This document shows positions 4,543 to 37,783 of a DNA stretch of 64,000 nt, one piece after another. The DNA comes from an uncultured Candidatus Peribacteria bacterium (lineage in GTDB: Bacteria > Patescibacteriota > Gracilibacteria > Peribacterales > Peribacteraceae): contig CAZHQF010000004.1 in the NCBI GenBank assembly GCA_964534205.1, positions 109,436 through 173,435 of the forward strand, in the 5' to 3' direction. The stretch's first letter is position 1. Each line of letters opens with the position of its first letter. The notes under the pieces were generated by a model. It was not told the DNA's origin, searched no databases, and saw only the letters and a program-made list of their open reading frames with translations. A program made the position numbers and the translations under genes.

Positions 4543-4586
4543 TCATTTAAAGTATAACACAAAAATTGGAAATTTCATAATTAAAA

Positions 4587-5111: not shown

Positions 5112-5179
5112 CTAGAGGAGTTGGAAACCCAGATAAATTTCCGATTACAAAATAACCGACGGTATGCTATAATAATCTG

Positions 5180-11758: not shown

Positions 11759-12484
11759 TTACTTTTGGGCTCCCAACCTCCTCTGCAACTTCTTCAGCGC
11801 CCAGAGCTCCTTGAACATGTTCACAATCACGTAGAGCTTGGCACCGGTGGGGTTCCCCGCCGTGCGCGGGTAGTGCGGCACATCCACCTGCGCCCACTCG
11901 ATCCCCTGCATCTTGAGGCGCAGGAACATCTCGGTGTTGAAGAGTTTTTCATACCCGACGGTCGGGCGGATGGAAGGCCAGAGGTCCCTGAAGTAACACT
12001 TCATGCCGCAGTTCACATCGCGCACCCAGAGGCCGAGGACGATCCAGTTCATGAGACCGAGCACCTTGCCGAACATGTTGCGGATAAAAGAATCCGCGCG
12101 CTTGCGGCGGCGGCCGGTGGCAAAGCGGTGGGTTTCGAGGAGCGGGAGGAGTTTCTCCAGATCCTCGGGCTTGAACTGTCCGTCGGAATCCATGAAGGCG
12201 ATCACCTCCTTGGTGGCGGTATCGCAGCCGGCGCGGATGGCTCCGCCGTAGCCCTGGTTTTTGGTGTTGTGGATCACGCGCAGGTGCGTGTCCTCTTTCG
12301 CCATGGCATCCAGGAGTGCGCCCGTGCGGTCGCGCGAGCCGTCATCCACGGCGATGACTTCGCCGTCCATCCCTGTGCGCGCAAGCCAGGCAAGGCACGC
12401 GCGGACGGTGACAGGCACATTGTCCTCCTCGTTGTAACACGGGAGGACCAGGGAGAGGGAACGCACGGACATCCGGGGCATCAT
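11759..12484 (-). CDS. Family-2 glycosyltransferase (polyprenyl-phosphate sugar synthase type, DPM1/ArnC/GtrB-like)
   Basis: LSLVLPCYNEEDNV, VIAVDDGSRDRT, GYGGAIRAG and MDSDGQFKPEDL motifs. Confidence 0.9.
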   Translation of the reverse strand: MMPRMSVRSLSLVLPCYNEEDNVPVTVRACLAWLARTGMDGEVIAVDDGSRDRTGALLDAMAKEDTHLRVIHNTKNQGYGGAIRAGCDTATKEVIAFMDSDGQFKPEDLEKLLPLLETHRFATGRRRKRADSFIRNMFGKVLGLMNWIVLGLWVRDVNCGMKCYFRDLWPSIRPTVGYEKLFNTEMFLRLKMQGIEWAQVDVPHYPRTAGNPTGAKLYVIVNMFKELWALKKLQRRLGAQK

Positions 12485-12534
12485 TGCGGATGCAGACGAG
12501 CCGGGTCAACGGTTCTTTCCGCGGGCGGGAGCGC

Positions 12535-15062: not shown

Positions 15063-18000
15063 TCAGGGAGTTACGGGGACGGACTCCTGGGGTGCAGGCG
15101 GTGCAGCCTCGACCGGCTCATCGGTAGCAGACGGTGTTTCCTCCGGGAGAGCAGGCTCTTCCACCGGCTCGTCCCCCGAAGGTTCAACGGAGGGGGATGC
15201 TTCGGGCTCAAGGACGGGTTCCTCTGCAGGAGGAAGATCGGCAGGAACATCCGACGGTGTCTCCTCCGGAGGAGGTGTGTCCGACGGTGTCTCACTCGGA
15301 GGTTCCGTCACCGGTTCCTCCAAAGGAGTCTCCTCAGGAGCCGGCTCCGTGATCTCCTCACTCATTGTCTCCTCCACTCGTGAGTACCCGTCCGGGAGGA
15401 CGAGGAGCGGCGGCGTGGTCTGGGTGTTCCAGGTGAATTCAATCGAGAGATCCGGATGCGTCCAGACATAGTCCTCGTGATACCGGCTGCAGGAGAGCGG
15501 GTTCCCGTCGGCATCCAGCGTCACCTGGTTTCTGATACACGCGTTCCAGACCGCGTTACTGGAGAGCGGAACGCCGGAGGCATCGACCGGGAAGGCGATA
15601 CCCACTGAGGAGGACGAGGAAGAGGACGACGTGAGGGCGGACGGATCGAAGGTGAAGGCACCGAGTGCATGCCAGGAGAAGGTGATGTCCTCCGTGGCCG
15701 GAGCGGCAAGACGGATAGTGAAGCCCGTCATGGTGGCGTTGGAGACGGCATAGAGCACCGGCACATCCGGCGAGGCGGTGACGATGGGCTGTACGGTCGT
15801 GGGCGGATCGAAGGTGATGGTGACAGAGGTACCGGACATCGGGATCTTCGCCATGCCTGCCTGGCGATCGCTCACCTGGAGCTCACCGTGCACCTGCACG
15901 TCACCGAGGAACTGTGCGAGGCCTTCAATGGTGACGGGGCCGAGGACATGCAGCGCATTCCTGACGACGAGGGTGCTGAAGTCGACGGTGGAACCCGAAG
16001 CGAATCCGAGTGTCGCGCCGGAGGCGAGTTCCAGCGAGCCCTGGATCGTGAGCACTCCGCCGATCGTGGCACCGGAGGAGACGGTGAGCGTATCGGCATC
16101 GAGGGAGGACGCGGTGAGCGCGCCGTCGATCGTGACGATGCCCGGGATGAAGAGGCTCGAAACCCTGAGCGTGCCATCGAGCTCCAGATCTCCGGCGATG
16201 CGGGCGTTACTGCCGACGATCAGCGTGTCTTCCACATTGAGCGTGGAGGCGACCAGGTCCGCACTGGTTGTTCCTGTGCCAGCTGAGGAGCCTCCGAGAG
16301 AGGTTTCGAGCTGCGAGATGCGGGCTGCGAGAGCGTTCAGCGCACTGTCGCCGGCAACGGTGACCGTGCCGCCGGAGAGGGAATCGATGCGCGCGTTGAG
16401 AGCGGCAAGGCGCTCCTCGATGGATTGCACGTTGAGAGCGGATACCTGGCGGCTCACTTCCTCGCTGATCGGCTGCATCAGCGTGCCGGACGCGGAGAAC
16501 TGCGCCACGGCCTGCTGGAGCGAAAGCTCGAGCTCATCCTGGATCTTGAGATCCTGGACGGTCTGGAGGACGCGCTCGGAAACGGCTTCGGTGGTGAGGC
16601 TCTGGTTGCGGCGCGAGATGAGCACCTGAATGGTCCCCGTGGTGCCCGTGTTCCCGGTGAGACCCGTGAGCGCGACACCCACCGTGGACTCCCCTGCCAT
16701 CGCCTTGCGGACGTACCCGGACAGCGCGGCGGCGGTGAGACTGTCACCCGGACGGATGACGGAACCCGAGGCGATGACGGCCTTTGCCGGGACCTGACCG
16801 ATAAGACCGACAAGGACGGTGCCGGGAACGGGAACGCCGTCTGCACCGGACATCACGTTACCCACGAAGGACGGGTTGGTGGAGACGATACCGATCACGT
16901 CCGGATCGCCGTCGCCGCGGCACTTGCGCACGCTGTTCTCACGCGTGACATCGATACACACCGCATCACCCGGCACCAGATCGGTGTCGGCGGTGCGGAA
17001 CCACTCGGCGTAGTCGGCACCGGTACCGTTGTAGCTGCCGTCCGAGTACACAGTGCCGTCCGCACGGATACTGAAGACGGGATTATTGGCCGACGTGACG
17101 TTGCTCATGATGCGGAAGGCGTTCACGGCCGAGTCCGTGGTGCCCGTGGTGAGCAGCAGGGCTCCGGAGTTGGCGTTGACCCTGAGCGCATAGGAGAGCG
17201 AGCCGCTCGCGGTGATGGAGGCTCCGCCGACGACATTCATGCCCTGGCCCACCGTGAGCGCGCCGCGGATATCGGTATCGTTGAACACCTGGAGATTCTC
17301 GCGGAAGAGACCGGTGCCTGCCTCAAAACCGCCCACGCCGAGCTGATGGATGTACGTGCCGAAGGCGTTGAGGACGTGCAGTTTGCTGTTGGAGGTATCC
17401 GTCAGATATGCATGCTGACCGAGAACGAACAGCGCACGGGGTACGGACAAACTCGTGGACTCACTATCGACGAAGCTGACCGACGCGGGATTGCTGACGT
17501 CGTATACTCCCAATGTGCCGCCAAGGTTGGTGACGTACATGTATTCGCCCTGCACATACACGGACTCGGGATCACTCATGTTGCTCGTCGTGGTGCTGAT
17601 GTGGACCGGATACGCCGGGTTACTGATATCGTAAATGCTGACGCCGTCATTTCCCTGTGCTGCGATGTATGCGTAGCGGCCCTGGACGTAAATGCCCGTC
17701 GGCAAAGAGGTAAAATTCGTACCGCTCGAAACATACGTGGGCGCGGCGGGATCGCTGACATCGAAGACGTACATGGCGTTGGCTTCGACATCTGCGACGT
17801 AGGCGTAGCGGCCCTGGACGTAAATCGCGTACGGATCGGCGAGGTTGGTGCTGACGACACCGACCCTGATGGGATTTTTGGGGTTGCTGACATCGATGAC
17901 ATTCAGCGTGTCATTGTTGGACACAACGTATGCATACCGGCCCTGGACGTACACGTCTCTGAGAAGACCGGCGAGCGTGACTGAACCTACACTGGTTATG

Positions 18001-21000
18001 CGAGCCGGGTTGGAAACATCCATGATCGTGAGGATGGAAGTATCCTGGTTGGTGACGTACGCGTAACGGCCCTGGACGTAGACGGCCTCGGGCGTAAAGA
18101 GACCGGTGCTGATGCTGAAGATCTGCACCGGATCAGCGGGGTCGCTGACATCAAATGCGTTGAGGGTATGAGCGTAAAGATCGGTGACGTAGGCATAATT
18201 GCCCTGGACGTAGACATCCGACGGATACGAGAGGGCGAGCGTGCTTGCCGAGGAACCGGCGGAACTGTCGCCGCTGCCGGCATCACCGCCGCTGTACGCC
18301 AGGCTGCCTTCCGTGATCCCGCCGCCGCCGAGGGAGCTGGTGTTGCAGAAAATGTTGCCGGAGCTGTCGGTGGCGAGGACGGAACAGTTCGTGAGCCCGC
18401 TGATCTGCACCGTGCTGTCGAAGAAGGCGATGCCGTCGACCTCCAGCGATTGCTCGATAAAGACATCGCTGTAACCGTCGAGCCCGTGGCCGGCCATGCT
18501 GCTGCCATTGGTCGCAAAGAAGCTGTAGGGCACCAGGTTTGACACGCCGCCGACATGGAGGTTGCCGTTGACATCTAGGGTGGCGTTCGGTGCGCTGGTG
18601 TTGATGCCGACCATTCCCATATCCAGAATGCGCATGCGCTCGGTATTGTTGGTACGGAACGCGAGGTGCGTGCCGTCGGTGGTACCGACGAATTGGGCGG
18701 AGGCGTTGATTCCGCTGTTGCCGGTCAGCGCCCAGAAATCGCCGCCGGCCGAACTGGTGTTGCAGTACACATTGCCCGAAACGTCGGTGGCCAGGAACGA
18801 ACAGCTGGTGATCGCGCTGAACGTCAGCGAGTTATCAAAGAATGCGGCGCTGTCCACCTCGAGAGAACCGGAGATGTAGAGGTCATCGGTGGAATCAAGA
18901 TTGGTCGCAACGGAGGAATCGTTGGTGGTGATCTTGTTGTACGAGGCGGAGGTAGTGGCACCGCCGACGATAAAGGTGTGCCCGAGACGTACGCCGGTAT
19001 CGAAGAAGGCATAGCCGTCGACTTCCAGCGCACCGCCGATATACAGGTCATCCGACGTATTGATCTGGTCGGACGCGGTGTGGCTGGCAACGCTGGAATC
19101 GTTGTTGCTGATCAGGTTATAGCCTGCGTTGCTCGTGGTGGATCCGCCGACGACGAAGGTGCCGCCAAGTTTGAGAAGATTGAGAGAGTCGTTATAGAAG
19201 AAATTGGTGTTGTCTTGAGCGAGAACGCCGGAGGGGCCGAGGAAGAGAACGGAGCCTTGCGTACCCGAACCGACAGCATCACCGATCGAGGCGGCACCGC
19301 CACCGTCCGTGCCGCAGGTGAGCACACCGTTGGCCGTTTCCAGGGCGGTACAGTTGGCGTAGTTGTTAAGGTAGGCAAGGCCATCGACGATGAGGGAACC
19401 GGAAGACCGGAGCGAATCCTGTGCGTGCACGGTGCGTCCGGACGCGGTGCCCCTCACTTCCGCGCCGCCTGCACCGGTGAAGTGGAAGCCATCGGAGGAG
19501 TTGTAGCCCATGACCCCCTCGCTGACGGAGGTACCCATATGGACGCTGGTGCCACTGATGTACAGATCCCTCCAGCGATTGGTGTTGGAACCCAGGTCAT
19601 ACGTGGCATCCGCGGTCGGGACCACGTGACCGGTGATGTATGCACCGGACTGCAGGCGTGTGGTGCTGCGGACGATGAGCGTGCCGGAGCTGCGCAGCTG
19701 ATCCTGAGCATGAACGATTGCTCCGGAGACGGTGGTGAACTCAAGGAGAGAACCGGTGATCGTGGTATTCAGTGTGAAGACGTTGCTCGTAAGTGTCAGG
19801 CCGCGGCCGGCGAAGTATGAGGAACCGTCGTCGGTGCCGCAGGTGATGAGACCGTTGACAGTCTCAAGCGCAGTGCAGTTGGCGTAGTTGTTGAAGTACA
19901 CGGCACCGTCCACGAGGAGGGAACCGGATGCACGGAGCTGATCCTGCGCGTGAATCACCCGGCCGGAGGCGGTGCCGATGATCTCCAGCTTGAGGTTGGT
20001 ATCCACCGTGGAGGAACCGATGTTCACGGATCCGAGCAGGTAACTGTTGCCGGCCATCACCGTGAGTGCCGCACCGGAGAGGGTGCCGCGGGTGGTGAGG
20101 TTGCCCTTCACGAGACCGGTGCTCTGGACCACGAGGGTTCCCGAAGAAGCGAGACGGTCCTGGGCGTGGAGGACACGGCCGGAGGCCATGCCGATGATCT
20201 CCAGGGAGACGCCGGTGTCCGCGGCGGACGATCCGAGGTTTCCGTTTGCATTGATGATCATGGCACCGGAGAGGGCCAGACGGGAACCGGGACTGGCCGT
20301 ACCGAGGCCGAGGCGGTAGTTGGTGGTGTCGGTGTAGAGGAGCGGATACGGACGCGTGGTACGGATGACGAGCGCACCGGAGGATTCCAGCTTGTCCTGC
20401 GCGTGTATCACACGGCCGGAAGCGGTACCGATGACCTCCAGCTTGAGGTTGGTATCCACCGTGGAGGAACCGATGTTGACGGAGCCCAAGAGGTAACTGT
20501 TGCCGGCCATCACCGTGAGTGCCGCACCGGAGAGGGTGCCGCGGGTGGTGAGGTTGCCCTTCACGAGACCCGTGCTCTGGACCACGAGGGTGCCGGAGGA
20601 GGCAAGGCGGTCCTGGGCGTGGAGGACACGGCCGGAGGCCATGCCGATGATCTCGAGTTTGACGTTGGTGTCGATGGCGGTGGACCCGAGGTTGAGGGGA
20701 CCCAGGAAGGAGCTGTTGCCGCTCATGATGGTGAGCGCACCGCCGGAGAGCGTGTTGCGGGCGGAGACGTTGGTATTGGCGTACAGGTTGTTGACGGAGA
20801 TGTTATTGGAGAAGTTGCCGTCGACGCTAAAGATGTTCGACCAGCGGTTGGTGGAGTTGCCGAGTGCGTAGCTGTTGTTGGCGGCGGCGAGGATGCTGGT
20901 ATTGGCCGAACCGTTGAAGGAGATGTTGTCACCGGCGGCGTCACCGAGGGAGACGTTGCCGTTGGCAAAGAGGTTGCCGGAGAAGTTGCCGGTACCGGCA

Positions 21001-24000
21001 TAGAGGCCGTTCCAGCGGTTGGAGGTGTTGCCCAGGTCGTAGGTGACGTTGGCGGCGGGCAGGAGGCTCGTGTTGAACAGACCGTTGGCGGCAATGTTAT
21101 CGGAGGTGGCGTCACCGAGACCCACGTTGCCGTTCATGTTCACGTTGCCGGAGAAGTTGCCGGTGTTGGCGTAGAGGTTGTTCCAGCGGAGAGACGTGTT
21201 ACCCAGGTCATACGTGGCATTGGAGGCGGGGATGAAGTTGGTGCTCACGTTGCCGTTGAAGTATGCGCTGCCGTCGACGATGAGGGAGCCGGAGGAACGG
21301 AGGATGTCCTGGGCGTGGAGGATGCGGCCGGAGGCGACGCCGAGGACTTCAAAGAGGATGCCGGAATCGAGGAAGGCGGTGCCGTTGCCGGAGCGGATGA
21401 TGAGACCGCCGGTCATGGTGTCACCGGAGACGTTCACGTACCTGCTGTCTGCGGTGGTCTGGGAGAGGCCGCCGGCCGAGCCGCAGGAGAGGGCACCGGC
21501 GGAATCGGTCTGGAGGGCAGAGCAGTTGGTGAGGGACTTGAAGGTGACGCCGCTCTGGACCACGAGGGTGCCGGAGGAGGCAAGGCGGTCCTGGGCGTGG
21601 AGGACACGGCCGGAGGCCATGCCGATGATCTCGAGCTTGATGTTGGAATCGTAGTTGGTGGACCCAAGGTTGAGGGGGCCCAGAAACGAGCTGTTGCCCG
21701 CCATGATGGTGAGCGCACTGCCGGAGAGGGTGTTGCGGGCGGAGATGTTGGTCGCCGTGACATTGGTGGCGAAGTTGCCATTCACCGCGTACAGGGTGGC
21801 CCAGCGGTTGGAGCTGTTGCCGAGGTCGTATGAGTTGTTTGCAGCGAGGAGGATGCTGGTGTTCGCAAGACCGTTGAAGGAAACGTTGTCGGCTGCTCCG
21901 TCACCGAGACCCACGTTGCCGTTCATGTTCACGTTGCCGGAGAAGTTGCCGGTGTTGGCGTAGAGGCCGTTCCAGCGGTTGGAGGTGTTGCCCAGGTCGT
22001 ACGTGACGTTGGCGGCGGGCAGGAGACTCGTGTTGAACAGACCGTTGGCGGCAATGTTGTCGGAGGTGGAGTCGCCCAGGGAGATGTTGCCCTGGAGGAA
22101 GGAGTTGCCTTCCACGGCGAGAGCGCCGGAGGAACGCAGGAGGTCCTGCGCATGAACGGTTGCACCGGAGACCGTTGTAAATTCAAGGAGAGAACCGGTG
22201 ATCGTTGTGTTCAGAGTGAAGACGTTGGAACTGACGGTGAGCCCCCTGCCTGCAAGGTAGGTGGTACCGTCGTCAGTGCCACACGTGACAAGGCCGTTGA
22301 CGGTCTCGAGAGAGGTGCAGTTTGCGTAGTTGTTGAAGTACACGGCACCGTCGACGAGGAGGGAGCCGGACGCACGGAGAACATCCTGGGCGTGGAGGAC
22401 GCGGCCGGAGGCGGTGCCGATGATTTCCAGGGCAAGACCTGTATCAGCTGTCATGCCCGTCGTGCCGGTGGAATTAATGATCATGGCGCCGGAAAGCGCG
22501 AGCTTGCTGCCAGGTGCATTGGTATTGATACCAATGTTGTCGGTGGAAGCATCCAAGAAGAACAGGTTGGACTTGGTGTCACCCTCGATGCGGAAGTCAG
22601 TGTTGCCGGCGTCGTTATTGAAGACGATTTCGGACGTACCTAGGTCCATAAGGTTGACTGTCGTGCTGTACGCGTTTGTGGAGTTGTATAGGACAAAAGT
22701 CCCGCTTGCCTCAATGCGCCAGCTGTTATTGCCATTGTTGCGATTGAAATCAATATACGAAGTGTGGCCGTTGGTGCCGTGCAACGTGAGCTTGGGAATC
22801 CCGGTGGATGCGATGGTGAGATCCGACGTCGGAGCGGCTGTCCCGATACCGACGCGCCCATTGGTGACATCGGTATAGAGGACCGGATTTGTCGTAGTAG
22901 AGCGCACGACGAGCGCACCGGAGGCTTCCAGCCTGTCCTGGGCGTGGAGGATGCGGCCGGAGGCGGTGCCGATGATCTCGAGCTTGAGGTTGGAATCAAC
23001 GGTGCTGGAGCCGAGGTTGAGGTTTCCGAGGAGGTAGCTGTTGCCGGCCATCACCGTGAGTGCTGCACCGGAGAGGGTGCCGCGGGTGGTGAGGTTTCCT
23101 TTGATGAGACCAGTGGTATCGACGACGAGTGAGCCGGAGCTCCGTAGCTGGCTGCGGGCATACACCGTCATGCCGGAGAGGGTCTGGAAGTTGACGAGCG
23201 AACCGGTGATCGTGGTGTTGAGACGGAAGCCCGTGCCGGTGAGGGTGAGGCCTTGGCCGGCGCTGTAGGAAGAGCCGTTATCCGTACCGCAGGTCACAAG
23301 ACCGTTGACGGTCTCGAGCGCGGTACAGTTTGCGTAGTTGTTGAGGTACACGACCCCATCGACGAGGAGAGAGCCGGAGGAGCGGAGCTGGTTCTGCGCA
23401 TGGATCGTGCGGCCGGAAGCGGTACCGATGACTTCGAGACCCTCCTGGATGAAGACATCGGCATCGTCGAAGTATCCGGACCAGGCGACGGCCCCCGTGG
23501 CGGTGGCGTAGATGCCGTAGGCCGCCGAGCCGGGGCTGTTGAGGTCTTCGGCCATCGCGGCCCCAAAGTAACCGCCATAGACGAGATCGATACCGTTGCC
23601 GGTCCGGCCCGCCATGGTCATCACGGCGGTGGCGTCGATACCGTAGACCTTGCGGTTCACGGCCGATCCCACGCCCGATGTCGTGGCATCCCCGACATGA
23701 GAGGCGGACACGGAGATGCCCGCCTGAACCATCGTATGCAGAGACCCTTCGTCGACGGAAAGCGTACGCTGGCTATCGCTGTTCACATACAGGCCGTAGT
23801 CTGTGGGGCCGAAATTCGTCGTCGTCACCTCTTCCGGCATGTCCGCATCGATGTACACCCCCGTCAGCCCGCTGTCATAGGTGCCCGGCAGCTGATTCTG
23901 CGTGCTGACGTAGAGCAAGCCGTCGTCCGGCATGGCGGTACCGATGCCGACCCTCTTGTTGGTGGCGTCGTACACGAGACCGTTGGTATCGACCACGAGA

Positions 24001-27000
24001 GTGTTGCCGGTGTTGGTGCCGGAGCGCTTCTTGATGGCGAGCGCGCCGGTCATGGTGTCTCCGGAAACGTTGACGTACCGGGAATCGAAGGATGCGCGCA
24101 GTGATCCGGTGGAAGTGAAGAGCACCCCGTAATCCTCCAGTGAGCTGACATCTCCGCATTCCACGCTTCCGGCATCGTCGGTGATCAGCAGCGGGCAACT
24201 GACAAAGACGGAATCCAGGAGGCGGAATCCGTTCTCGATCGCAAGGTTGTAGATGTAAGCCCCGCTGTTGAGGTACGCGTTACCGTCCACCGCGAGCACT
24301 CCGCTGGAGGCGAGTCTGTTGTTGGCGAAGAGTGTGGAACCGGAGACGGTGGTGAATTCGAGGAGGGAGCCGGTGATGGTGGTGTTCAGGGTGAAGACGT
24401 TGCTCGTGAGGGTGAGGCCGCGGCCGGCGACGTACGACGTTCCGCCATCATCCGTGCCACAGACGATCTGACCGTTGGAAGTTTCCAGAGAGGTGCAGTT
24501 TGCGTAGTTGTTGAAGTACACGGCACCGTCGACGAGGAGGGAGCCGGAGGCGCGGAGCTGATCCTGGGCATGGAGAACACGGCCGGAAGCGGTGCCGATG
24601 ATCTCGAGCTTGAGGTTGGAATCAACGGTGCTGGAGCCGAGGTTGAGGTTTCCGAGGAGGTAGCTGTTGCCGGCCATCACCGTGAGTGCTGCACCGGAGA
24701 GGGTGCCGCGGGTGGTGAGGTTTCCTTTGATGAGACCAGTGGTATCGACGACGAGTGAGCCGGAGCTCCGTAGCTGGCTGCGGGCATACACCGTCATGCC
24801 GGAGAGGGTCTGGAAGTTGACGAGCGAACCGGTGATCGTGGTGTTGAGACGGAAGCCCGTGCCGGTGAGCGTCAGACCCTGCCCTGCCCCGTACTGCGAA
24901 TTGGAGTCGGTGCCGCAGACGAGGTCGCCGTTGGAGTTGGTATCGAGCGTGTTGCAGTTGGTGAGAGCGGTCAGACGGACGGTACCCTGCAGGAAGGAAT
25001 TGCCTTCAACGGCGAGGACACCGGAGGAAGCAAGGCGGTTGTTTGCGGTGACTGTAGAGCCGGAGATGGTCTGGAATGTGAGGGAGGAGCCGGTGATGGT
25101 GGCGTTGAGTCTGAATGACGTTCCGTTGAGCGTCAGGCCCTGGGCGGCGGTGTAGGTGGTGTTGTCGTCGGTGCCGCAGACGAGATCGCCGTCCGCGTCG
25201 GTCTCAAGCGCGGTGCAGCCGAAGAAACTGGCGTTGAGGAGCTTGATCGGGGCGCTGCTGCCTGCATTGATCGTGCCACCGAAGAAGGAGTTGCCTTCGA
25301 CCGCAAGAACTCCGGAGGAGGTGAGACGGTCAGTGGCAGAGACGAGGGAGCCGGAGACAGTGGTGAATTCCAGGAGCGAACCGGTAATTGTCGTGTTGAG
25401 CGTAAAGACACCGGCGGTGAGCGTGAGTCCCCTGCCGGCGAAGTACGACGTTCCGCCATCGTCCGTGCCACAGACAATCTGACCGTTGGAGGTTTCCAGA
25501 GCGGTGCAGTTTGCGTAGTTGTTGAAGTACACGGCACCGTCCACGAGGAGAGAGCCGGAGGAACGGAGCTGATCCTGTACATGAACGATGCGGCCGGAAG
25601 CCGTACCGAGAACCTCGAGGAGAACACCGGCATCGACTGTGACAGTGCCGTTACCGGAGCGGATCGCGAGAGCTCCGGTCATCGTGTCGCCGGAGACGTT
25701 CACGAAACGGTTATCGAAGTAGGTCGTGAGCGAGCCGGTACCGAACGATGCGCCGCCTGCACCCGTATCATCCGTGCCGCAGACAATCTGGCCGTTGGAG
25801 GTCTCAAGCGCGGTACAGTTCTGATAGTTATTGAGGTACACAACGCCGTCCACAAGCAACGAGCCCGACGAGCGGAGACTGTCTTGGGCGTGCAGAACGC
25901 GTCCGGAAGCCGTTCCAAGAACATTCAGACCGCCATCGAGCTGCACGGATCCATCCACCTCCAGTGATCCTTCGATGAAGAGATCGTCGTCGGAATCGAT
26001 GACATCGGTGTGGCTTGCGCTGCCCGAATCGGAAATGATGTTGTAGGCCCGGGCTCCGACACCTCCCACATTATAGGTACCAACGACTGCGATACCGGAA
26101 GCGAAGTTCACGGAGTTGTCGTAGTAACTGATGCCATCGACCTCGATGGTGCCGGCGATGAAGAGATCATCATCGGAATCGAGGCCGCCGCCGCCCGCGT
26201 GGGAGGCCGCGCCGGAATCACTGATGATGTTGTAGACCTGCGAGGCGGCGCCGCCGACATTGAAAGCACCTTCGACCGTGAGGGATCCGGACGACAGAAG
26301 ATTCGTACGCGCAAAGACGCTGGAACCGGAAACCGTCGTGAAATTCACCAGGGAACCGGTGATTGCGCCATTGAGACGGAATGCCGTGCCGTTGAGCGTG
26401 AGGCCCTGAGCCGCCGAGTATGTGGTGCCCTCGTCGGTGCCGCAGACCAGATTGCCGCTGGGATCGGTATCGAGCGAATTACAGTTCGTAAGAGCGGCGA
26501 GGCGGACCGTCCCCTGGAGATACGAGGTGCCTTCCACGGCGAGAACGCCGGAGGACGTGAGGCGGTTGGCGGCGGAGATCGTGGAACCGGAGACTGTCTG
26601 GAACGAGACGAGAGAACCCGTGAGCGTGCCGTTGAGGCGGAAGACGTTTCCGGTGAGACCGATCCCCTGGCCCGCAACGTACGTGGAACCTTCGTCCGTG
26701 CCGCAGCTGAGGTTGCCGTTGGCATCGGTATCGAGCGTGTTGCAGTTCTTGAGTGTGGAGACGGTGAGTGTTGCACCGGAGAGGTTGCCGCGGGTGGTAA
26801 GGTTGCCCTTGAAGAGACCGGTCGTCTGAACGATGAGCGAACCGGAAGAGCGCAGGGTGTTGTTTGCAAACAACGTGGTACCGGACACGGTCTGGAAATT
26901 CACAAGCGAACCGGAAATCGAGGAGGCGAGGCGGAAGCTGTTGGACGTGAGCACGAGGCCCTGGGCGGCGGTGTACGTGGTGCCTTCGTCCGTGCCGCAG

Positions 27001-28574
27001 ACCAGGTCACCGCTGGAGTTGGTATCCAGTGTGTTGCAGTTGGTGAGCGACGTGATGCGGACGGTTCCCTGGAGGAAGGAATTGCCTTCAACGGCGAGGA
27101 CACCGGAGGAGGTGAGGCGGCTGTTTGCGGTGATCGTGGAGCCGGAGATCGTCTGGAAGGTGAGAGAGGAACCGGTGAGCGTCGTGTTCAGCGTGATGAC
27201 GGTGCCGTTGAGGGTCAGGCCGCGGCCCACGCTGTACGTGGTGTCGGAGTCTGAACCGCAGACGAGGTCGCCATCAGCATCGGTCTCAAGGGCGGTGCAG
27301 CCGAAGAAATCGGAATGGAGAAGCTTGAGACCGGCGGCCAGCGTGGTGTTGCCGGTGACGGCAAGGGTGCCGCCGAGGAAGGAGTTGCCTTCGACCGCGA
27401 GTGAACCGGAGAGCGACGTGGCGCCTTCCACGAGGAGCACACCCGAGGACCGGAGAACCGTCTGCGCGTGAACGACGGAACCGGAGACCGTCGTGAATTC
27501 CAGGAGGGAGCCGGTGATCGTGGAGTTGAGCGTGAACGTGTTCGTGATCGTGTTGAGCGTGAGACCCTGGCCGGCGCGGTAGCTGGAGCCGGCACCGCCC
27601 TCGTCCGTGCCGCAGACAAAGTTGCCGTCGGCATCGGTATCGATCGTGTTGCAGTTCTTGAGTCCGGAGATCGTGAGCGTGGCACCGCTGAGGTTGCCGT
27701 GGACGACTGCATCGCCGGCGACGATCAGATCACCGCTGCTCGTGAGGAGCTGCTCGGCGTGGAGGACGGATCCGGAGATCGTGCCCGTGACATTGAGGCC
27801 GAGTCCGTCGACGAGGATGTTGAGGAGCCCCGTCATCGTGTCGCCGGGAACGTTCACATAGCGGCCGTCGGCATCACTCTGGGAGAGACCGCCCGTACCG
27901 CCCGTGCCACCGGAATTGCCGCTGTCACCGCCGCCGCCTCCGCCGCCGTAGCTGCGCTGCACCGGACCCGACTCACCGCCGGAACTGCCGCCGACCGGGA
28001 ACGGGCGGCGGCCGAGACCGGGACTGTAGACTCCGGGGAAATCTTTCCAGACGGCTTTGCCGTTCTCGATCATCAGAATCTGGCCTTCCCTGCCGTCATC
28101 CGGGAAGCGCAGCGCGGAGACGCGCTGGCCGAATTCGCTGCGGGTCTGCACGGTGGGGACGGCTGTGCGGAGGACCGGAGCACCGAACCACGTGGGCTCG
28201 GGAATCGCGGGGACCGCAACTGCCGCAGCGGCCGGAGACGTGCGGGGCGAAGGCGAACCGAACCACGTGGGCTCGGGAATGCTCTCCGTGCGCGGGCTCG
28301 CCTGCGTCACGCGTACGCGCGTAGAAGAAAACACCGATGCCTGCTGCGTGGAAACGACAGCGTTCGTTGCGGATGTCTGTGCGGGACGCGGAGACGGCGC
28401 AAGCACGCCGAACGTGGCACGCAGGAACACGTCCCCGATCACCGATGCCCTGGACGCGTGTCCCGAACCGGTCAGCAGCAGCAACGCGAGAGCCACCACG
28501 CCCGCGGCAAACACGCGGCGATGCACGCTGCGTTTCCGTCCTGCCGTGTTGGTGTTGGAAAGTGGCTCCGGCAT
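15063..28574 (-). CDS. Giant (4503 aa) anchored surface fibre protein: concatenated tail-fibre-like modules, 7-repeat LVIVD region and a C-terminal beta-helix module
   Basis: Uninterrupted 13.5 kb ORF. N-terminal signal/anchor VFAAGVVALALLLLTG. Recurrent Y(V/L)NVSGDTMTG, (R/N)VGIGT..P, IIGTASGR.LHAQD.LRSSG, YDLGN.SNRWN.LYA and NC..L.T...G...CGTD units. YVQGRYAYV repeats. See findings. Confidence 0.9.
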   Translation of the reverse strand: MPEPLSNTNTAGRKRSVHRRVFAAGVVALALLLLTGSGHASRASVIGDVFLRATFGVLAPSPRPAQTSATNAVVSTQQASVFSSTRVRVTQASPRTESIPEPTWFGSPSPRTSPAAAAVAVPAIPEPTWFGAPVLRTAVPTVQTRSEFGQRVSALRFPDDGREGQILMIENGKAVWKDFPGVYSPGLGRRPFPVGGSSGGESGPVQRSYGGGGGGGDSGNSGGTGGTGGLSQSDADGRYVNVPGDTMTGLLNILVDGLGLNVTGTISGSVLHAEQLLTSSGDLIVAGDAVVHGNLSGATLTISGLKNCNTIDTDADGNFVCGTDEGGAGSSYRAGQGLTLNTITNTFTLNSTITGSLLEFTTVSGSVVHAQTVLRSSGVLLVEGATSLSGSLAVEGNSFLGGTLAVTGNTTLAAGLKLLHSDFFGCTALETDADGDLVCGSDSDTTYSVGRGLTLNGTVITLNTTLTGSSLTFQTISGSTITANSRLTSSGVLAVEGNSFLQGTVRITSLTNCNTLDTNSSGDLVCGTDEGTTYTAAQGLVLTSNSFRLASSISGSLVNFQTVSGTTLFANNTLRSSGSLIVQTTGLFKGNLTTRGNLSGATLTVSTLKNCNTLDTDANGNLSCGTDEGSTYVAGQGIGLTGNVFRLNGTLTGSLVSFQTVSGSTISAANRLTSSGVLAVEGTSYLQGTVRLAALTNCNSLDTDPSGNLVCGTDEGTTYSAAQGLTLNGTAFRLNGAITGSLVNFTTVSGSSVFARTNLLSSGSLTVEGAFNVGGAASQVYNIISDSGAASHAGGGGLDSDDDLFIAGTIEVDGISYYDNSVNFASGIAVVGTYNVGGVGARAYNIISDSGSASHTDVIDSDDDLFIEGSLEVDGSVQLDGGLNVLGTASGRVLHAQDSLRSSGSLLVDGVVYLNNYQNCTALETSNGQIVCGTDDTGAGGASFGTGSLTTYFDNRFVNVSGDTMTGALAIRSGNGTVTVDAGVLLEVLGTASGRIVHVQDQLRSSGSLLVDGAVYFNNYANCTALETSNGQIVCGTDDGGTSYFAGRGLTLTAGVFTLNTTITGSLLEFTTVSGSLVSATDRLTSSGVLAVEGNSFFGGTINAGSSAPIKLLNASFFGCTALETDADGDLVCGTDDNTTYTAAQGLTLNGTSFRLNATITGSSLTFQTISGSTVTANNRLASSGVLAVEGNSFLQGTVRLTALTNCNTLDTNSNGDLVCGTDSNSQYGAGQGLTLTGTGFRLNTTITGSLVNFQTLSGMTVYARSQLRSSGSLVVDTTGLIKGNLTTRGTLSGAALTVMAGNSYLLGNLNLGSSTVDSNLKLEIIGTASGRVLHAQDQLRASGSLLVDGAVYFNNYANCTSLETSNGQIVCGTDDGGTSYVAGRGLTLTSNVFTLNTTITGSLLEFTTVSGSTLFANNRLASSGVLAVDGNAYLNSGAYIYNLAIENGFRLLDSVFVSCPLLITDDAGSVECGDVSSLEDYGVLFTSTGSLRASFDSRYVNVSGDTMTGALAIKKRSGTNTGNTLVVDTNGLVYDATNKRVGIGTAMPDDGLLYVSTQNQLPGTYDSGLTGVYIDADMPEEVTTTNFGPTDYGLYVNSDSQRTLSVDEGSLHTMVQAGISVSASHVGDATTSGVGSAVNRKVYGIDATAVMTMAGRTGNGIDLVYGGYFGAAMAEDLNSPGSAAYGIYATATGAVAWSGYFDDADVFIQEGLEVIGTASGRTIHAQNQLRSSGSLLVDGVVYLNNYANCTALETVNGLVTCGTDNGSSYSAGQGLTLTGTGFRLNTTITGSLVNFQTLSGMTVYARSQLRSSGSLVVDTTGLIKGNLTTRGTLSGAALTVMAGNSYLLGNLNLGSSTVDSNLKLEIIGTASGRILHAQDRLEASGALVVRSTTTNPVLYTDVTNGRVGIGTAAPTSDLTIASTGIPKLTLHGTNGHTSYIDFNRNNGNNSWRIEASGTFVLYNSTNAYSTTVNLMDLGTSEIVFNNDAGNTDFRIEGDTKSNLFFLDASTDNIGINTNAPGSKLALSGAMIINSTGTTGMTADTGLALEIIGTASGRVLHAQDVLRASGSLLVDGAVYFNNYANCTSLETVNGLVTCGTDDGTTYLAGRGLTVSSNVFTLNTTITGSLLEFTTVSGATVHAQDLLRSSGALAVEGNSFLQGNISLGDSTSDNIAANGLFNTSLLPAANVTYDLGNTSNRWNGLYANTGNFSGNVNMNGNVGLGDGAADNVSFNGLANTSILLAANNSYDLGNSSNRWATLYAVNGNFATNVTATNISARNTLSGSALTIMAGNSSFLGPLNLGSTNYDSNIKLEIIGMASGRVLHAQDRLASSGTLVVQSGVTFKSLTNCSALQTDSAGALSCGSAGGLSQTTADSRYVNVSGDTMTGGLIIRSGNGTAFLDSGILFEVLGVASGRILHAQDILRSSGSLIVDGSAYFNGNVSTNFIPASNATYDLGNTSLRWNNLYANTGNFSGNVNMNGNVGLGDATSDNIAANGLFNTSLLPAANVTYDLGNTSNRWNGLYAGTGNFSGNLFANGNVSLGDAAGDNISFNGSANTSILAAANNSYALGNSTNRWSNIFSVDGNFSNNISVNNLYANTNVSARNTLSGGALTIMSGNSSFLGPLNLGSTAIDTNVKLEIIGMASGRVLHAQDRLASSGTLVVQSTGLVKGNLTTRGTLSGAALTVMAGNSYLLGSVNIGSSTVDTNLKLEVIGTASGRVIHAQDKLESSGALVIRTTRPYPLLYTDTTNYRLGLGTASPGSRLALSGAMIINANGNLGSSAADTGVSLEIIGMASGRVLHAQDRLASSGTLVVQSTGLVKGNLTTRGTLSGAALTVMAGNSYLLGSVNIGSSTVDTNLKLEIIGTASGRVIHAQDQLRASGSLLVDGAVYFNNYANCTALETVNGLITCGTDDGSSYFAGRGLTLTSNVFTLNTTITGSLLEFTTVSGAIVHAQDQLRSSGTLIVRSTTRLQSGAYITGHVVPTADATYDLGSNTNRWRDLYISGTSVHMGTSVSEGVMGYNSSDGFHFTGAGGAEVRGTASGRTVHAQDSLRSSGSLIVDGLAYLNNYANCTALETANGVLTCGTDGGGAASIGDAVGSGTQGSVLFLGPSGVLAQDNTNFFYNDSLNLLKLGGTFVVGGSTTSNAGYNLISNNDSSVASHTASDQINTSDDLYIGGALEVDGYAFFDTGVRLGHTFIVGGATTSASYNKITTNDSSVATNLDSTDDLYISGSLEVDSAAFFDNSLTFSAITSCSFLATDVSGNVYCNTSSAGGDFWALTGNSGINASAQFVGTTDGTHLAFRTNNTERMRILDMGMVGINTSAPNATLDVNGNLHVGGVSNLVPYSFFATNGSSMAGHGLDGYSDVFIEQSLEVDGIAFFDSTVQISGLTNCSVLATDSSGNIFCNTSSLGGGGITEGSLAYSGGDAGSGDSSAGSSASTLALSYPSDVYVQGNYAYVTDLYAHTLNAFDVSDPADPVQIFSISTGLFTPEAVYVQGRYAYVTNQDTSILTIMDVSNPARITSVGSVTLAGLLRDVYVQGRYAYVVSNNDTLNVIDVSNPKNPIRVGVVSTNLADPYAIYVQGRYAYVADVEANAMYVFDVSDPAAPTYVSSGTNFTSLPTGIYVQGRYAYIAAQGNDGVSIYDISNPAYPVHISTTTSNMSDPESVYVQGEYMYVTNLGGTLGVYDVSNPASVSFVDSESTSLSVPRALFVLGQHAYLTDTSNSKLHVLNAFGTYIHQLGVGGFEAGTGLFRENLQVFNDTDIRGALTVGQGMNVVGGASITASGSLSYALRVNANSGALLLTTGTTDSAVNAFRIMSNVTSANNPVFSIRADGTVYSDGSYNGTGADYAEWFRTADTDLVPGDAVCIDVTRENSVRKCRGDGDPDVIGIVSTNPSFVGNVMSGADGVPVPGTVLVGLIGQVPAKAVIASGSVIRPGDSLTAAALSGYVRKAMAGESTVGVALTGLTGNTGTTGTIQVLISRRNQSLTTEAVSERVLQTVQDLKIQDELELSLQQAVAQFSASGTLMQPISEEVSRQVSALNVQSIEERLAALNARIDSLSGGTVTVAGDSALNALAARISQLETSLGGSSAGTGTTSADLVASTLNVEDTLIVGSNARIAGDLELDGTLRVSSLFIPGIVTIDGALTASSLDADTLTVSSGATIGGVLTIQGSLELASGATLGFASGSTVDFSTLVVRNALHVLGPVTIEGLAQFLGDVQVHGELQVSDRQAGMAKIPMSGTSVTITFDPPTTVQPIVTASPDVPVLYAVSNATMTGFTIRLAAPATEDITFSWHALGAFTFDPSALTSSSSSSSSVGIAFPVDASGVPLSSNAVWNACIRNQVTLDADGNPLSCSRYHEDYVWTHPDLSIEFTWNTQTTPPLLVLPDGYSRVEETMSEEITEPAPEETPLEEPVTEPPSETPSDTPPPEETPSDVPADLPPAEEPVLEPEASPSVEPSGDEPVEEPALPEETPSATDEPVEAAPPAPQESVPVTP
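20611..21568. repeat. About 0.96 kb block nearly identical to 34744-35701 in the second giant gene (offset 14133)
   Basis: Read directly. The same DNA runs from tcctgggcgtggaggacacggccggaggccatgccgatgatctcgagtttgacg onward. The antisense ORFs 20723..21115 and 34856..35248 translate identically. I saw only isolated mismatches, for example near 21514. Confidence 0.85.
22965..23243. repeat. About 279 bp repeat, no mismatch seen by eye, with 24591-24869 inside the 4503-aa gene (offset 1626)
   Basis: Identical text from ggtgccgatgatctcgagcttgaggttggaatcaacgg to cccgtgccggtgag in both places. The protein segment ...LSGMTVYARSQLRSSGSLVVDTTGLIKGNLTTRGTLSGAALTVMAGNSYLLGNLNLGSSTVDSNLKLEIIGTASGR occurs twice. 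Confidence 0.85.
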
Positions 28575-37763: not shown

Positions 37764-37783
37764 GATGAGGGAACCCGAAGATC

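What the first reader, a model, noticed from the sequence alone, without database searches (positions are those of the whole stretch)
15063..28574. The 4503-aa protein reads as many phage-tail-fibre-like modules fused head to tail
Seen in sequence: after the anchor, the chain repeats a limited vocabulary. The (R/N)(Y/F)VNVSGDTMTG(A/G)L motif occurs at least 4 times. N(K/G)RVGIGT..P...L occurs at least 5 times. (L/I)E(I/V)(I/L)GTASGR(V/I)(L/I)HAQD.LRSSGSL(L/I)VDG occurs more than 20 times. Runs of YDLGN(T/S)SNRWN.LYA.TGNFSGN are present. Cys pairs occur in N(Y/C)(A/N)NCT.LET.NG...CGTDD. Established (from memory of families, to be verified): Y.P.SGGTMTG, GNVGIGT..P..KL.V and LG....RW..(V/L)Y motifs are hallmarks of phage and giant-virus tail-fibre or fibre-like proteins. 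Inference: this is a multi-micrometre-scale modular fibre, stabilised by disulfide knobs and therefore extracellular. It was built by repeated duplication of fibre cassettes rather than by a single simple repeat.
Basis: partly seen in the sequence, partly recalled or inferred. Interest (0 to 1): 0.75.

Follow-up and report, generated by a model that had tools for sequence, protein, structure and literature searches.

The report
Giant phage-fibre-like surface fibre gene
A tiny, probably host-dependent bacterium (Peribacteria, candidate phyla radiation) encodes a 4,503-residue surface protein built from the modules that phages, giant viruses and predatory Bdellovibrio use for three-stranded attachment fibres, so it is a strong candidate for host attachment.

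Summary
The fibre reading is largely supported. The GDTMTG motif matches a T4-type long tail fibre, and the 'YDLG..RW' motif matches phage fibre ends. The 'VGIGT..P...L' domains are homologues of Bdellovibrio MAT trimeric beta-helices (E 1e-13). The C-terminal part carries a Peptidase_G2 self-cleaving chaperone domain like that of phi29 gp12; this rests on Pfam, on Foldseek and on a conserved cleavage motif. The commonest module, a roughly 90-aa Cys-hairpin cassette, has no match in PDB, Pfam or PHROGs and links to the rest only by profile comparison. The gene sits among housekeeping genes of a Peribacteria genome, not in a prophage. It belongs to a large lineage-wide family of mosaic proteins, some over 5,000 aa. 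A frameshifted 5.7-kaa paralogue lies just upstream. 'Multi-micrometre' is wrong; about 0.15-0.4 um is realistic. Trimer formation, self-cleavage and host binding are inferred, not shown.

The parts
15063..28574 (-). Whole gene 'A': 4,503-aa modular fibre protein
   Evidence: Intact ORF. The identical protein is in NCBI, unnamed, on a 205,908-bp contig.
28455..28574 (-). aa 1-40: basic tail (RKRSVHRR), hydrophobic stretch VFAAGVVALALLLL, then TGSGHA|S. This is either a Sec signal peptide or an N-terminal membrane anchor.
   Evidence: Read directly from the sequence. No signal-peptide predictor was available.
28011..28205 (-). aa 124-188: conserved membrane-proximal segment (GQILMIENGKAVWKDFPG)
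   Evidence: 69% identical to the paralogue B and found in many family members.
18687..27878 (-). aa 233-3296: fibre shaft. It is a mosaic of Cys-hairpin/Q/H cassettes (12 complete copies), 4 GDTMTG cassettes, 26 H motifs, 6 W motifs, capping-loop beta-helix domains and 4 D modules.
   Evidence: Landmark map. Cys-pair to Q to H spacing is fixed at 0, +27 and +55.
26235..27677 (-). aa 300-780: first array of five Cys-hairpin/GQGL/H cassettes (about 87-98 aa each)
   Evidence: No PDB match. Profile match to the GDTMTG cassette: hhalign probability 98.4%, E 7e-15.
22440..22892 (-). aa 1895-2045: beta-helix domain bounded by two capping loops (VGIGTAAPTSDL ... IGINTNAPGSKL). Similar domains lie at aa 1530-1715 and 3297-3441.
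   Evidence: Profile A6 against PDB: Bdellovibrio MAT fibres Bd2133 (8ond, 1.8e-13), Bd3182 (8ojn, 3.1e-11), Bd1334 (8oml, 1.7e-8). phrog_9942 tail fiber at 1e-7 and 3e-8. Loop consensus from PMC10769870.
20775..22127 (-). aa 2150-2600: two runs of 57-aa units ending in YDLGN.SNRW..LYA, with a GDTMTG cassette between them
   Evidence: Profile A4 against PDB: cyanophage P-SCSP1u fibre gp28 at 1.1e-7, with weaker hits to T5 L-shaped tail fibre and an endosialidase. tblastn hits to cyanophage and roseophage tail fibres. PHROG tail-fibre and tail-spike hits.
17370..18227 (-). aa 3450-3735: seven-bladed LVIVD beta-propeller, the likely binding head
   Evidence: Pfam PF08309, 112 bits, 6 matched stretches. 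Seven 'VYVQGRYAYV' blades are visible in the sequence.
16605..17357 (-). aa 3740-3990: stalk plus the Peptidase_G2-type intramolecular-chaperone/autocleavage domain
   Evidence: PF11962 scores 26.7 bits against a cutoff of 25. AlphaFold2 pLDDT is 80-97 here. Best Foldseek PDB hit is 3gqh, the phi29 gp12 C-terminal fragment (E 3.2e-4, TMt 0.52). 101 BFVD hits include 'preneck appendage' and 'Peptidase G2 IMC' proteins.
16998..17021 (-). aa 3852-3859: GADYAEWF. Predicted self-cleavage between Ala3853 and Asp3854.
   Evidence: Aligns with phi29 gp12 W-S691|D692-FAEYF. Mature gp12* ends at residue 691 (PMC6542822). The motif was found in 66 of the 85 CPR homologues listed, many of which are partial, and also occurs in the PBCV-1 fibre P22.
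15375..16592 (-). aa 3995-4400: conserved C-terminal cassette. It comprises helical (coiled-coil-like) segments, a bactofilin-like beta-helix, a beta-sandwich and a Cys-pair domain.
   Evidence: AlphaFold2 gives helices at model residues 216-313, and pLDDT 94-97 for model residues 460-530 and 550-621. Foldseek matches H-type lectins and the R2 pyocin fibre foot. A putative tail fibre, 9cuy, matches at 1.7e-4. The cassette is conserved in 207 loci.
15066..15347 (-). aa 4410-4503: Pro/Glu-rich tail (28 P and 22 E in 94 aa)
   Evidence: Composition.
28767..45916 (-). Paralogue 'B': two ORFs (2,710 + 2,998 aa) that form one gene of about 5,716 aa, broken by a missing G at 37865-37882. Same N- and C-terminal cassettes as A, 23 Cys-hairpin cassettes, and three CBM35-like repeats in place of the LVIVD head.
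11759..14331 (-). PMT_2-family glycosyltransferase (12535-14331) and GT2 (11759-12484), directly downstream on the same strand. They are candidates for glycosylating the fibre.
   Evidence: Pfam. A GT2 homologue lies near the fibre gene in 22 of 80 related loci, and PMT_2 in 9.

Best explanation
Gene A encodes a secreted or N-terminally anchored cell-surface fibre of a Peribacteria (Patescibacteria/CPR) bacterium. The fibre is most likely a homotrimer.

The shaft (about 3,000 aa) is a mosaic of cassettes of the kind found in phage tail fibres and Bdellovibrio MAT fibres, interspersed with hairpins that are probably disulfide-stapled. Near the far end sit an LVIVD beta-propeller head and a short stalk. 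Next comes a Peptidase_G2-type intramolecular chaperone, which would set the register of the three chains from the C-terminus and then cut itself off at Ala3853|Asp3854, as in phi29 gp12. This would detach, or leave non-covalently bound, a conserved 650-aa piece made of helices, a beta-helix and lectin-like domains.

The proposed function is recognition of and attachment to a host cell or surface glycan. Specificity would be diversified by cassette shuffling and by swapping heads: LVIVD in A, CBM35-like repeats in paralogue B.

Shown here: module homologies, the chaperone fold and its motif, the chromosomal context, and the size and mosaicism of the family.
Inferred: trimer formation, cleavage, disulfides, glycosylation and the adhesin role.
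For: - Several module types match solved obligate-trimer fibres. GDTMTG matches a T4-type long tail fibre proximal subunit (9f4a, E 1.7e-6). The YDLG..RW unit matches cyanophage fibre gp28 (8i4m, 1.1e-7), with weak matches to the C-terminal ends of the solved T5 L-shaped tail fibre and endosialidase chains. The capping-loop domains match four MAT fibres (1.8e-13 to 7.8e-5). Those beta-helices are intertwined trimers (PMC10769870).
- The chaperone domain passes three tests: Pfam PF11962 above its cutoff, a Foldseek top hit to the phi29 gp12 C-terminal fragment, and a conserved D-[FY]-A-E-[YW]-F cleavage motif. The same module occurs in the homotrimeric chlorovirus fibre P22/Vp260 (PMC9617893).
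- The gene is cellular, not viral. Its neighbours include DprA, a type II/IV secretion ATPase, TIM, RpiB, ribulose-phosphate epimerase and a tRNA.
- The family is large. The C-terminal cassette occurs in 207 loci, and the 80 listed are nearly all titled Peribacteria or Peregrinibacteria MAGs. Shaft length before the cleavage motif varies from 131 to more than 3,400 aa, and the motif order differs from gene to gene. The Cys-hairpin cassette has 1,037 cluster representatives, some 4,000-5,357 aa long.
- CPR bacteria are known to carry giant membrane proteins thought to mediate host attachment (PMC8080830).
Against: - No trimer prediction could be run.
- The monomer AlphaFold2 model of shaft aa 2040-2480 was poor (mean pLDDT 56, mostly coil) and gave no Foldseek hit.
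- The dominant Cys-hairpin cassette and the D modules match nothing in PDB, Pfam or PHROGs.
- The motif-level matches to phage fibres are short (27-35 residues).
- PF11962 did not appear when the whole protein was scanned, only when the segment was scanned alone.
- The piece after the predicted cleavage site is 650 aa, much larger than phi29's roughly 160-aa chaperone, and strongly conserved. This fits a retained functional tip better than a discarded chaperone, so cleavage may not occur or may serve another purpose.
- There is no expression or localisation data.
- Whether the N-terminus is cleaved or acts as an anchor is undecided.
Confidence: 0.65

Rival explanations
1. A monomeric beta-solenoid or 'beads on a string' adhesin, like filamentous haemagglutinin or RTX-type giant adhesins. 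It would share only short sequence motifs with phage fibres.
For: One source names a homologue 'Filamentous hemagglutinin'. There are weak bactofilin-like (single-chain beta-helix) Pfam hits at aa 259-305 and 4111-4187, and a Foldseek bactofilin match (rank 38). Motif matches to phage fibres are short.
Against: No TPS or haemagglutinin Pfam domain was found at E <= 0.1. The capping-loop domains match MAT beta-helices over about 110 residues at E 1e-11 to 1e-13, and those helices are built from three intertwined chains. The chaperone domain belongs to a family known from trimeric spikes.
Confidence: 0.15
2. A tail-fibre gene of a prophage, tailocin or huge phage that happens to lie in this contig, rather than a cellular surface protein.
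For: The modules and the chaperone are typical of virion fibres. Some shorter homologues have tail-fibre-like N-termini and sit on contigs of 140-190 kb.
Against: The Pfam scans of the flanking ORFs returned only cellular families and no phage family: DprA, TIM, RpiB, epimerase, histidine kinase, glycosyltransferases, plus a tRNA. The ORFs without a Pfam hit were not scanned against PHROGs. The protein starts with a signal or anchor segment, which virion fibres lack. There are two tandem paralogues and several copies per genome across related MAGs.
Confidence: 0.05
3. An assembly artefact: a chimera of, or a cross-join between, repeated genes, so that the 4,503-aa product does not exist as written.
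For: A 1,050-bp stretch is 98.7% identical between A (20586-21635) and B (34719-35768), and 312 bp are 98% identical within A. The neighbouring paralogue has a 1-nt frameshift. Many homologues lie at contig ends.
Against: All other repeats are 73-89% identical, too diverged to collapse. An uninterrupted 13.5-kb ORF is not expected by chance. A mis-join at the shared stretch would only swap the distal halves of A and B, still giving two full giant genes of about 4,646 and 5,573 aa with proper N- and C-terminal cassettes. Complete homologues of 2,400-3,900 aa, and cluster representatives of 4,000-5,357 aa, exist elsewhere.
Confidence: 0.07

Closest known systems
Bdellovibrio bacteriovorus MAT (mosaic adhesive trimer) fibres (Bd2133, Bd3182, Bd1334, Bd2439; PMC10769870)
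   Same: Cell-encoded, surface-displayed, phage-like fibres of a bacterium that lives on other bacteria. Homologous beta-helix domains with V-G-G/N-pi-x-x-P-x-x-x-L capping loops. Mosaic tips, many paralogues, and a C-terminal self-cleaving chaperone in many members.
   Different: The MAT constructs described reach about residue 1,150, whereas this protein has 4,503 aa. MATs end in an S74 chaperone (SDxxxK) or a non-S74 tip; this protein has a Peptidase_G2-type domain followed by 500 more conserved residues. The Cys-hairpin cassette, the LVIVD head and the Pro/Glu tail were not seen in the parts of the MAT paper read here. The organisms differ too: a monoderm-like CPR bacterium versus a Gram-negative predator.
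Bacteriophage phi29 gp12 pre-neck appendage (tail spike) with its C-terminal autochaperone (MEROPS/Pfam Peptidase_G2; PDB 3gqh, 3suc)
   Same: Same fold for the chaperone domain (Foldseek E 3.2e-4), the same D-[FY]-A-E-[YW]-F motif at the cleavage point, and the shared GL(I/L)GQ(V/I) strand.
   Different: gp12 has 854 aa, is part of a virion, and its chaperone forms the extreme C-terminus (about 160 aa). Here the domain is internal and is followed by helical, beta-helix and lectin-like domains. Sequence identity is only about 17%.
S74-type phage fibres and spikes: T5 L-shaped tail fibre pb1 (4uw7/4uw8), endosialidases (4hiz), cyanophage P-SCSP1u fibre gp28 (8i4m)
   Same: The 'p..n.tYdLG....RW..vY' unit is the same element. 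In the solved T5 and endosialidase chains it lies at the C-terminal end. From my own knowledge, that end abuts the S74 chaperone cleavage site. The overall layout of propeller head, stalk and chaperone parallels K1F endosialidase (own knowledge).
   Different: Here the unit is used six times as an internal, tandemly repeated shaft element and is not followed by an S74 domain. No PF13884 hit was found.
Chlorovirus PBCV-1 capsid fibre P22 (A122/123R, Vp260; PDB 8h2i; PMC9617893)
   Same: A homotrimeric, glycosylated surface fibre carrying the same 'GADYAE' chaperone module (profile E 5.6e-7).
   Different: A eukaryotic giant-virus capsid protein of 1,343 aa. No shared shaft cassettes were detected.
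Giant membrane proteins of CPR predators and epibionts (e.g. Vampirococcus lugosii, 1,392-4,163 aa; PMC8080830)
   Same: Ultrasmall CPR bacteria with very long membrane or surface proteins proposed to mediate host recognition.
   Different: Those proteins were described by WD40, PKD, integrin and fibronectin-type domains. No phage-fibre modules or intramolecular chaperone were reported in the passages read.

Membership tests
MAT fibre family (Bdellovibrio) | Trimeric beta-helix domain bounded by capping loops V-G-G/N-pi-x-x-P-x-x-x-L | tested here: met
   Profile A6 hits 8ond at 1.8e-13, 8ojn at 3.1e-11, 8oml at 1.7e-8 and 8on4 at 7.8e-5. Five loop motifs are present. The consensus is taken from PMC10769870. 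This is sequence homology only; the trimer state was not tested.
MAT fibre family (Bdellovibrio) | [quoted passage not shown] | not tested
   A signal-like N-terminus and a family-conserved juxtamembrane segment exist. No MAT N-terminal sequences were available for comparison.
MAT fibre family (Bdellovibrio) | C-terminal S74 peptidase/chaperone with an SDxxxK motif (S74 subgroup) | tested here: not met
   No PF13884 hit in the whole-protein or segment scans. A Peptidase_G2-type domain is present instead.
Peptidase_G2 intramolecular chaperone (PF11962; phi29 gp12 type) | Profile match above Pfam's gathering score | tested here: met
   26.7 bits against a cutoff of 25, E 4.4e-6, aa 3835-3907, when the segment was scanned alone. 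Not listed in the whole-protein scan. Many homologues carry a precomputed PF11962 annotation.
Peptidase_G2 intramolecular chaperone (PF11962; phi29 gp12 type) | Fold of the gp12 C-terminal autochaperone | tested here: met
   AlphaFold2 pLDDT is 80-97 in this domain. Foldseek rank 1 is 3gqh_A (E 3.2e-4, probability 1.0, TMt 0.52), and 3suc is also listed. BFVD hits include 'preneck appendage' and 'Peptidase G2 IMC' proteins down to 3e-10.
Peptidase_G2 intramolecular chaperone (PF11962; phi29 gp12 type) | Cleavage-site motif x|D-[FY]-A-E-[YW]-F | tested here: met
   GA|DYAEWF at aa 3852-3859 aligns with gp12 WS691|D692FAEYF. Mature gp12* ends at residue 691 (PMC6542822).
Peptidase_G2 intramolecular chaperone (PF11962; phi29 gp12 type) | Actual autoproteolysis and release of the C-terminal fragment | not testable with these tools
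   Needs protein expression and mass spectrometry.
Phage tail fibre proteins | Shared shaft motifs (GDTMTG; YDLG..RW..vY) | tested here: met
   A5 against 9f4a at 1.7e-6. A4 against 8i4m at 1.1e-7. PHROG tail-fibre families at 1e-3 to 3e-8. tblastn hits to annotated tail fibres.
Phage tail fibre proteins | Encoded in a phage genome as part of a virion | tested here: not met
   The neighbours with a Pfam hit are housekeeping and other cellular genes. The protein has an N-terminal signal or anchor segment.
LVIVD repeat beta-propeller (PF08309) | Repeated LVIVD units above the gathering score | tested here: met
   112.4 bits against a cutoff of 20.2, with 6 stretches.
Filamentous haemagglutinin / two-partner-secretion adhesins | N-terminal TPS domain and haemagglutinin repeats | tested here: not met
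   No such Pfam family at E <= 0.1 in the whole protein, or at E <= 5 in the segments.

The most novel reading that the evidence does not exclude
The family is more than a passive adhesin: it acts as a contact device. One version is that Peptidase_G2 self-cleavage releases the conserved 650-aa trimeric piece (helices, beta-helix, lectin-like domains) as a separate host-binding or signalling unit. Another is that, in members such as paralogue B, a conserved cytoplasmic N-terminal domain links binding at the fibre tip to gene regulation inside the cell. That domain is a bona fide helix-turn-helix in some distant members. Either version would make these fibres the host-recognition and host-sensing apparatus of Peribacteria.
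Probability: 0.12. Interest if true: 0.85.

Novelty: new variant of a known kind. Interest (0 to 1): 0.6.

Why it matters
How ultrasmall CPR/Patescibacteria find and hold on to their hosts is largely unknown; type IV pili are the main documented factor so far. This gene suggests that one CPR lineage (Peribacteria and Peregrinibacteria) carries a large, fast-shuffling family of very long phage-fibre-like proteins, with swappable binding heads and a virus-type folding chaperone. That parallels the MAT fibres of predatory Bdellovibrio.

It supplies concrete candidates for host-range determinants. It also supplies a cleavage site that can be tested directly, and a new repeat module, the Cys-hairpin cassette, with no solved structure. 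Finally, it adds a case of the same fibre-building toolkit being shared between phages, giant viruses and cells.

Tried and rejected
- A homologue search with the full 4,503-aa protein timed out, so shorter segments were used.
- The exact-sequence contig look-up for A found nothing. A was later found as an unnamed NCBI singleton.
- tblastn of the chaperone domain against phage records found nothing. The link to phi29 needed profiles and structure.
- PDB profile searches with the Cys-hairpin cassette (A1) and the D module (A7) gave only chance-level hits or none.
- AlphaFold2 on aa 2040-2480, with an alignment of 45 repeat fragments, gave mean pLDDT 56 and no Foldseek match. It is uninformative about the shaft fold and was not used as evidence for disorder.
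- Literature searches for a prior description of phage-fibre-like or MAT-like proteins in Patescibacteria found none in the held library. The library is incomplete, so this is weak evidence of novelty.
- The haemagglutinin annotation of a homologue was rejected for lack of any TPS or haemagglutinin domain.
- A helix-turn-helix in paralogue B's own N-terminus could not be confirmed: no Pfam hit for B, 0.05 for a relative, and significant only in the distant member P0032.
Full report
**1. The observation**

The window holds an uninterrupted ORF at 15063..28574 on the minus strand, 4,503 aa.
- [YF]VNV[SP]GDTMTG occurs 4 times.
- The literal N(K/G)RVGIGT occurs twice. The looser loop motif [VLI]G[ILGN][GN]T..P...L occurs five times.
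- The long LEIIGTASGR..HAQD.LRSSGSL motif occurs 10-13 times in strict form. Only its degenerate core reaches 26 copies.
- YDLGN..NRW occurs 6 times.
- All 40 cysteines form 20 pairs spaced 12-16 residues apart.

None of these motifs appears in 300 composition-preserving shuffles. For the Cys pairs, 20 are observed against a shuffle mean of 2.

A landmark map shows a combinatorial architecture rather than one repeat. The core unit is a cassette of Cys-hairpin (C), then either AGQGLTL (Q) or GDTMTG (Y), then SG....A...L.SSG.L (H), with fixed spacing of 0, +27 and +55. Other module types are interspersed with it.

At the DNA level the repeats are 73-89% identical, so they are old duplications and not collapsed assembly repeats. 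The exceptions are a 1,050-bp stretch that is 98.7% identical to the neighbouring gene and a 312-bp stretch that is 98% identical within the gene.

**2. Context**

The two ORFs upstream (37784..45916 and 28767..37763, minus strand) are one paralogous gene of about 5,716 aa. It is split by a single missing G at 37865-37882; six in-frame sister cassettes read CTCACCGGCACGGGCTTC at the equivalent place. This paralogue has the same membrane-proximal and C-terminal cassettes as A and 23 Cys-hairpin cassettes. Where A has an LVIVD propeller, it has three CBM35-like repeats.

The surrounding genes are cellular: DprA, a type II/IV secretion ATPase, a histidine kinase, triosephosphate isomerase, RpiB, ribulose-phosphate epimerase and tRNA-Thr. 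This is therefore not a prophage.

Directly downstream on the same strand lie a PMT_2-family glycosyltransferase and a GT2 enzyme. A GT2 homologue lies near the fibre gene in 22 of 80 related loci.

Homologues come from Candidatus Peribacteria and Peregrinibacteria and from other Patescibacteria. The protein itself is an unnamed NCBI entry on a 205,908-bp contig.

**3. What the modules are**

- *Y module.* A profile of the GDTMTG cassette hits a solved 'long tail fiber proximal subunit' (9f4a, 'ADGRYVKKAGDTMTGNLNINS', E 1.7e-6). Two other phage tail fibres match more weakly.
- *W module.* The 57-aa YDLG..RW unit hits cyanophage P-SCSP1u fibre gp28 (8i4m, 1.1e-7). At lower significance it hits the C-terminal ends of the solved T5 L-shaped tail fibre and endosialidase chains. 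From my own knowledge, those ends abut the S74 chaperone in the full-length proteins. tblastn finds the same element in annotated cyanophage and roseophage tail fibres.
- *G domains.* These are regions of 110-150 aa bounded by two 'VGIGT..P...L' loops. They are clear homologues of the Bdellovibrio MAT fibre beta-helices: Bd2133 at 1.8e-13, Bd3182 at 3.1e-11 and Bd1334 at 1.7e-8. The MAT paper defines exactly this loop as a capping-loop consensus on an intertwined trimeric beta-helix (PMC10769870). PHROG tail-fibre families agree.
- *C-Q-H cassette.* This is the commonest module. It has no match in PDB, Pfam or PHROGs. Profile-profile comparison aligns it along its length with the C-Y-H cassette (probability 98.4%, E 7e-15), so it looks like a diverged sister of the phage-type cassette.
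- *D modules.* These remain unassigned.

A monomer AlphaFold2 run on aa 2040-2480 gave low confidence (pLDDT 56). It did place both Cys pairs in that segment at the ends of short beta-hairpins. One hairpin has pLDDT about 86; the other has only about 50. The model gave no Foldseek hits.

**4. The C-terminal end**

- aa 3450-3735 form a seven-bladed LVIVD propeller (PF08309, 112 bits).
- aa 3835-3907 match Peptidase_G2, the 'IMC autoproteolytic cleavage domain' (26.7 bits against a cutoff of 25).
- With a 48-sequence alignment, AlphaFold2 models this domain at pLDDT 80-97.
- Its best PDB match is the phi29 gp12 C-terminal fragment (3gqh, E 3.2e-4, TMt 0.52).
- 101 viral models match at E <= 1e-3. 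They include 'preneck appendage' and 'Peptidase G2 IMC' proteins, and also chlorovirus and marseillevirus fibre proteins.
- The motif GA|DYAEWF (aa 3852-3859) aligns with gp12 WS691|D692FAEYF. Mature gp12* ends at residue 691 (PMC6542822).
- The motif was found in 66 of the 85 CPR homologues listed, many of which are partial. It is also present in the homotrimeric PBCV-1 fibre P22/Vp260 (PMC9617893).

Downstream of this domain the model shows helical segments, a lower-confidence beta-helix, and two confident small domains. Those two resemble H-type lectins and the R2 pyocin fibre foot. A Pro/Glu-rich tail follows.

**5. The family**

The C-terminal cassette occurs in 207 loci of species-representative genomes, often several per genome. 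The 80 listed are nearly all titled Peribacteria or Peregrinibacteria MAGs. The distance from the cleavage motif to the stop codon is roughly constant. The part before the motif varies from 131 to more than 3,400 aa and shows different orders of the same motifs.

The Cys-hairpin cassette has 1,037 cluster representatives at E <= 1e-3, including proteins of 4,000-5,357 aa. This is a mosaic, rapidly rearranging family, comparable in its logic to the MAT fibres.

**6. Mechanism**

The best-supported model is a homotrimeric cell-surface fibre whose register is set from the C-terminus by a virus-type intramolecular chaperone. It has a swappable binding head and is used for attachment to a host cell or glycan.

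The trimer state follows from homology to elements that exist only as intertwined trimers. It was not tested directly. Cleavage at Ala3853|Asp3854 is predicted from motif and fold. However, the 650-aa conserved piece beyond that site is unlike phi29's small discarded chaperone, so its fate is open.

*Length.* MAT tips measure 6 nm per 135 aa and about 14-15 nm per 370 aa (PMC10769870), or about 0.04 nm per residue. Other trimeric fibres reach about 0.05-0.09 nm per residue (own knowledge). That gives roughly 0.15-0.4 um for this protein. Even a fully stretched chain would be about 1.5 um, so 'multi-micrometre' is rejected.

*Other inferences.* Disulfides and an extracellular location are plausible, given the paired cysteines and the N-terminal signal or anchor. 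Glycosylation by the neighbouring PMT_2 and GT2 enzymes is an inference from recurrent gene neighbourhood and from the protein's 22% Ser+Thr content.

**7. Rivals**

- *Monomeric solenoid adhesin.* Supported only by weak bactofilin-like hits and one homologue's 'haemagglutinin' label. No TPS or haemagglutinin domain is present.
- *Phage gene.* Contradicted by the gene neighbourhood and by the signal or anchor segment.
- *Assembly chimera.* Only the 98.7% stretch shared with the paralogue is a risk. A mis-join there would still leave two giant genes.

**8. Novelty**

Phage-like trimeric fibres on bacterial cells are known from Bdellovibrio (2024), and CPR giant surface proteins are known in outline (PMC8080830). 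I found no description of this Peribacteria family in the held library. The same holds for its G2-type chaperone in a cellular fibre and for the Cys-hairpin cassette. I rate it a new variant of a known kind, of moderate to good interest.

Noticed in passing
window 28767-45916 (-), frameshift at 37865-37882: The two ORFs upstream of the finding are one paralogous gene of about 5,716 aa, broken by a single missing G. Six in-frame sister cassettes read CTCACCGGCACGGGCTTC; this copy reads CTCACCG-CACGGGCTTCC. It could be a recent pseudogene, a phase-variable site or a sequencing error.
   Followed up: partly
window 29700-34600 (-), aa ~1060-2340 of ORF 28767-37763: Paralogue B carries three units of about 550 aa, each with a CBM35-like domain (PF18099, 29.3 bits), where gene A carries the LVIVD propeller. 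The two tandem fibres thus have different putative binding heads.
   Followed up: partly
window 20586-21635 and 34719-35768: A 1,050-bp stretch is 98.7% identical between the two paralogues, while the rest of their repeats are 73-89% identical. This could be recent gene conversion or a possible assembly cross-join point.
   Followed up: partly
window 11759-14331 (-): A PMT_2-family (protein-mannosyltransferase/ArnT-like) gene and a GT2 glycosyltransferase lie directly downstream of the fibre gene. A GT2 homologue lies within a few kb of the fibre gene in 22 of 80 related loci, and PMT_2 in 9. This suggests the Ser/Thr-rich fibre is glycosylated.
   Followed up: partly
window 45500-45916 (-), N-terminus of paralogue B; proteins P0139, P0015, P0008, P0032: B-type family members have a conserved cytoplasmic domain of about 125 aa before the membrane segment. 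In the distant member P0032 this position holds a bona fide HTH_28/HTH_23 domain. For B itself there is no Pfam hit. This is a possible link between the fibre and gene regulation.
   Followed up: partly
window 4000-8000: A low-GC island (0.37-0.42, against about 0.6 elsewhere) contains a SET-domain ORF (4587-5111, -) and a histidine kinase (5180-6625, +). It may be horizontally acquired.
   Followed up: no
window 7361-11737 (-) and 53645-58189 (-): Two further large ORFs are present: a 1,458-aa protein with FG-GAP repeats in the same gene string as the fibres, and a 1,514-aa protein with no Pfam hit. The region is rich in large putative surface proteins.
   Followed up: no
window 15375-15860 (-), aa 4239-4400: The two confidently modelled C-terminal domains resemble trimeric H-type lectins (Helix pomatia agglutinin, SLL-2) and the R2 pyocin fibre foot in Foldseek (E 0.007-0.02, TMt about 0.5). 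They may form a second carbohydrate-binding tip beyond the predicted cleavage site.
   Followed up: partly
window 12000-46000: There is strong positive GC skew on the + strand across the whole giant-gene block (up to +0.26), meaning the coding strand is C-rich. This probably reflects the Thr/Ser/Ala/Leu-rich codon content of the repeats.
   Followed up: no
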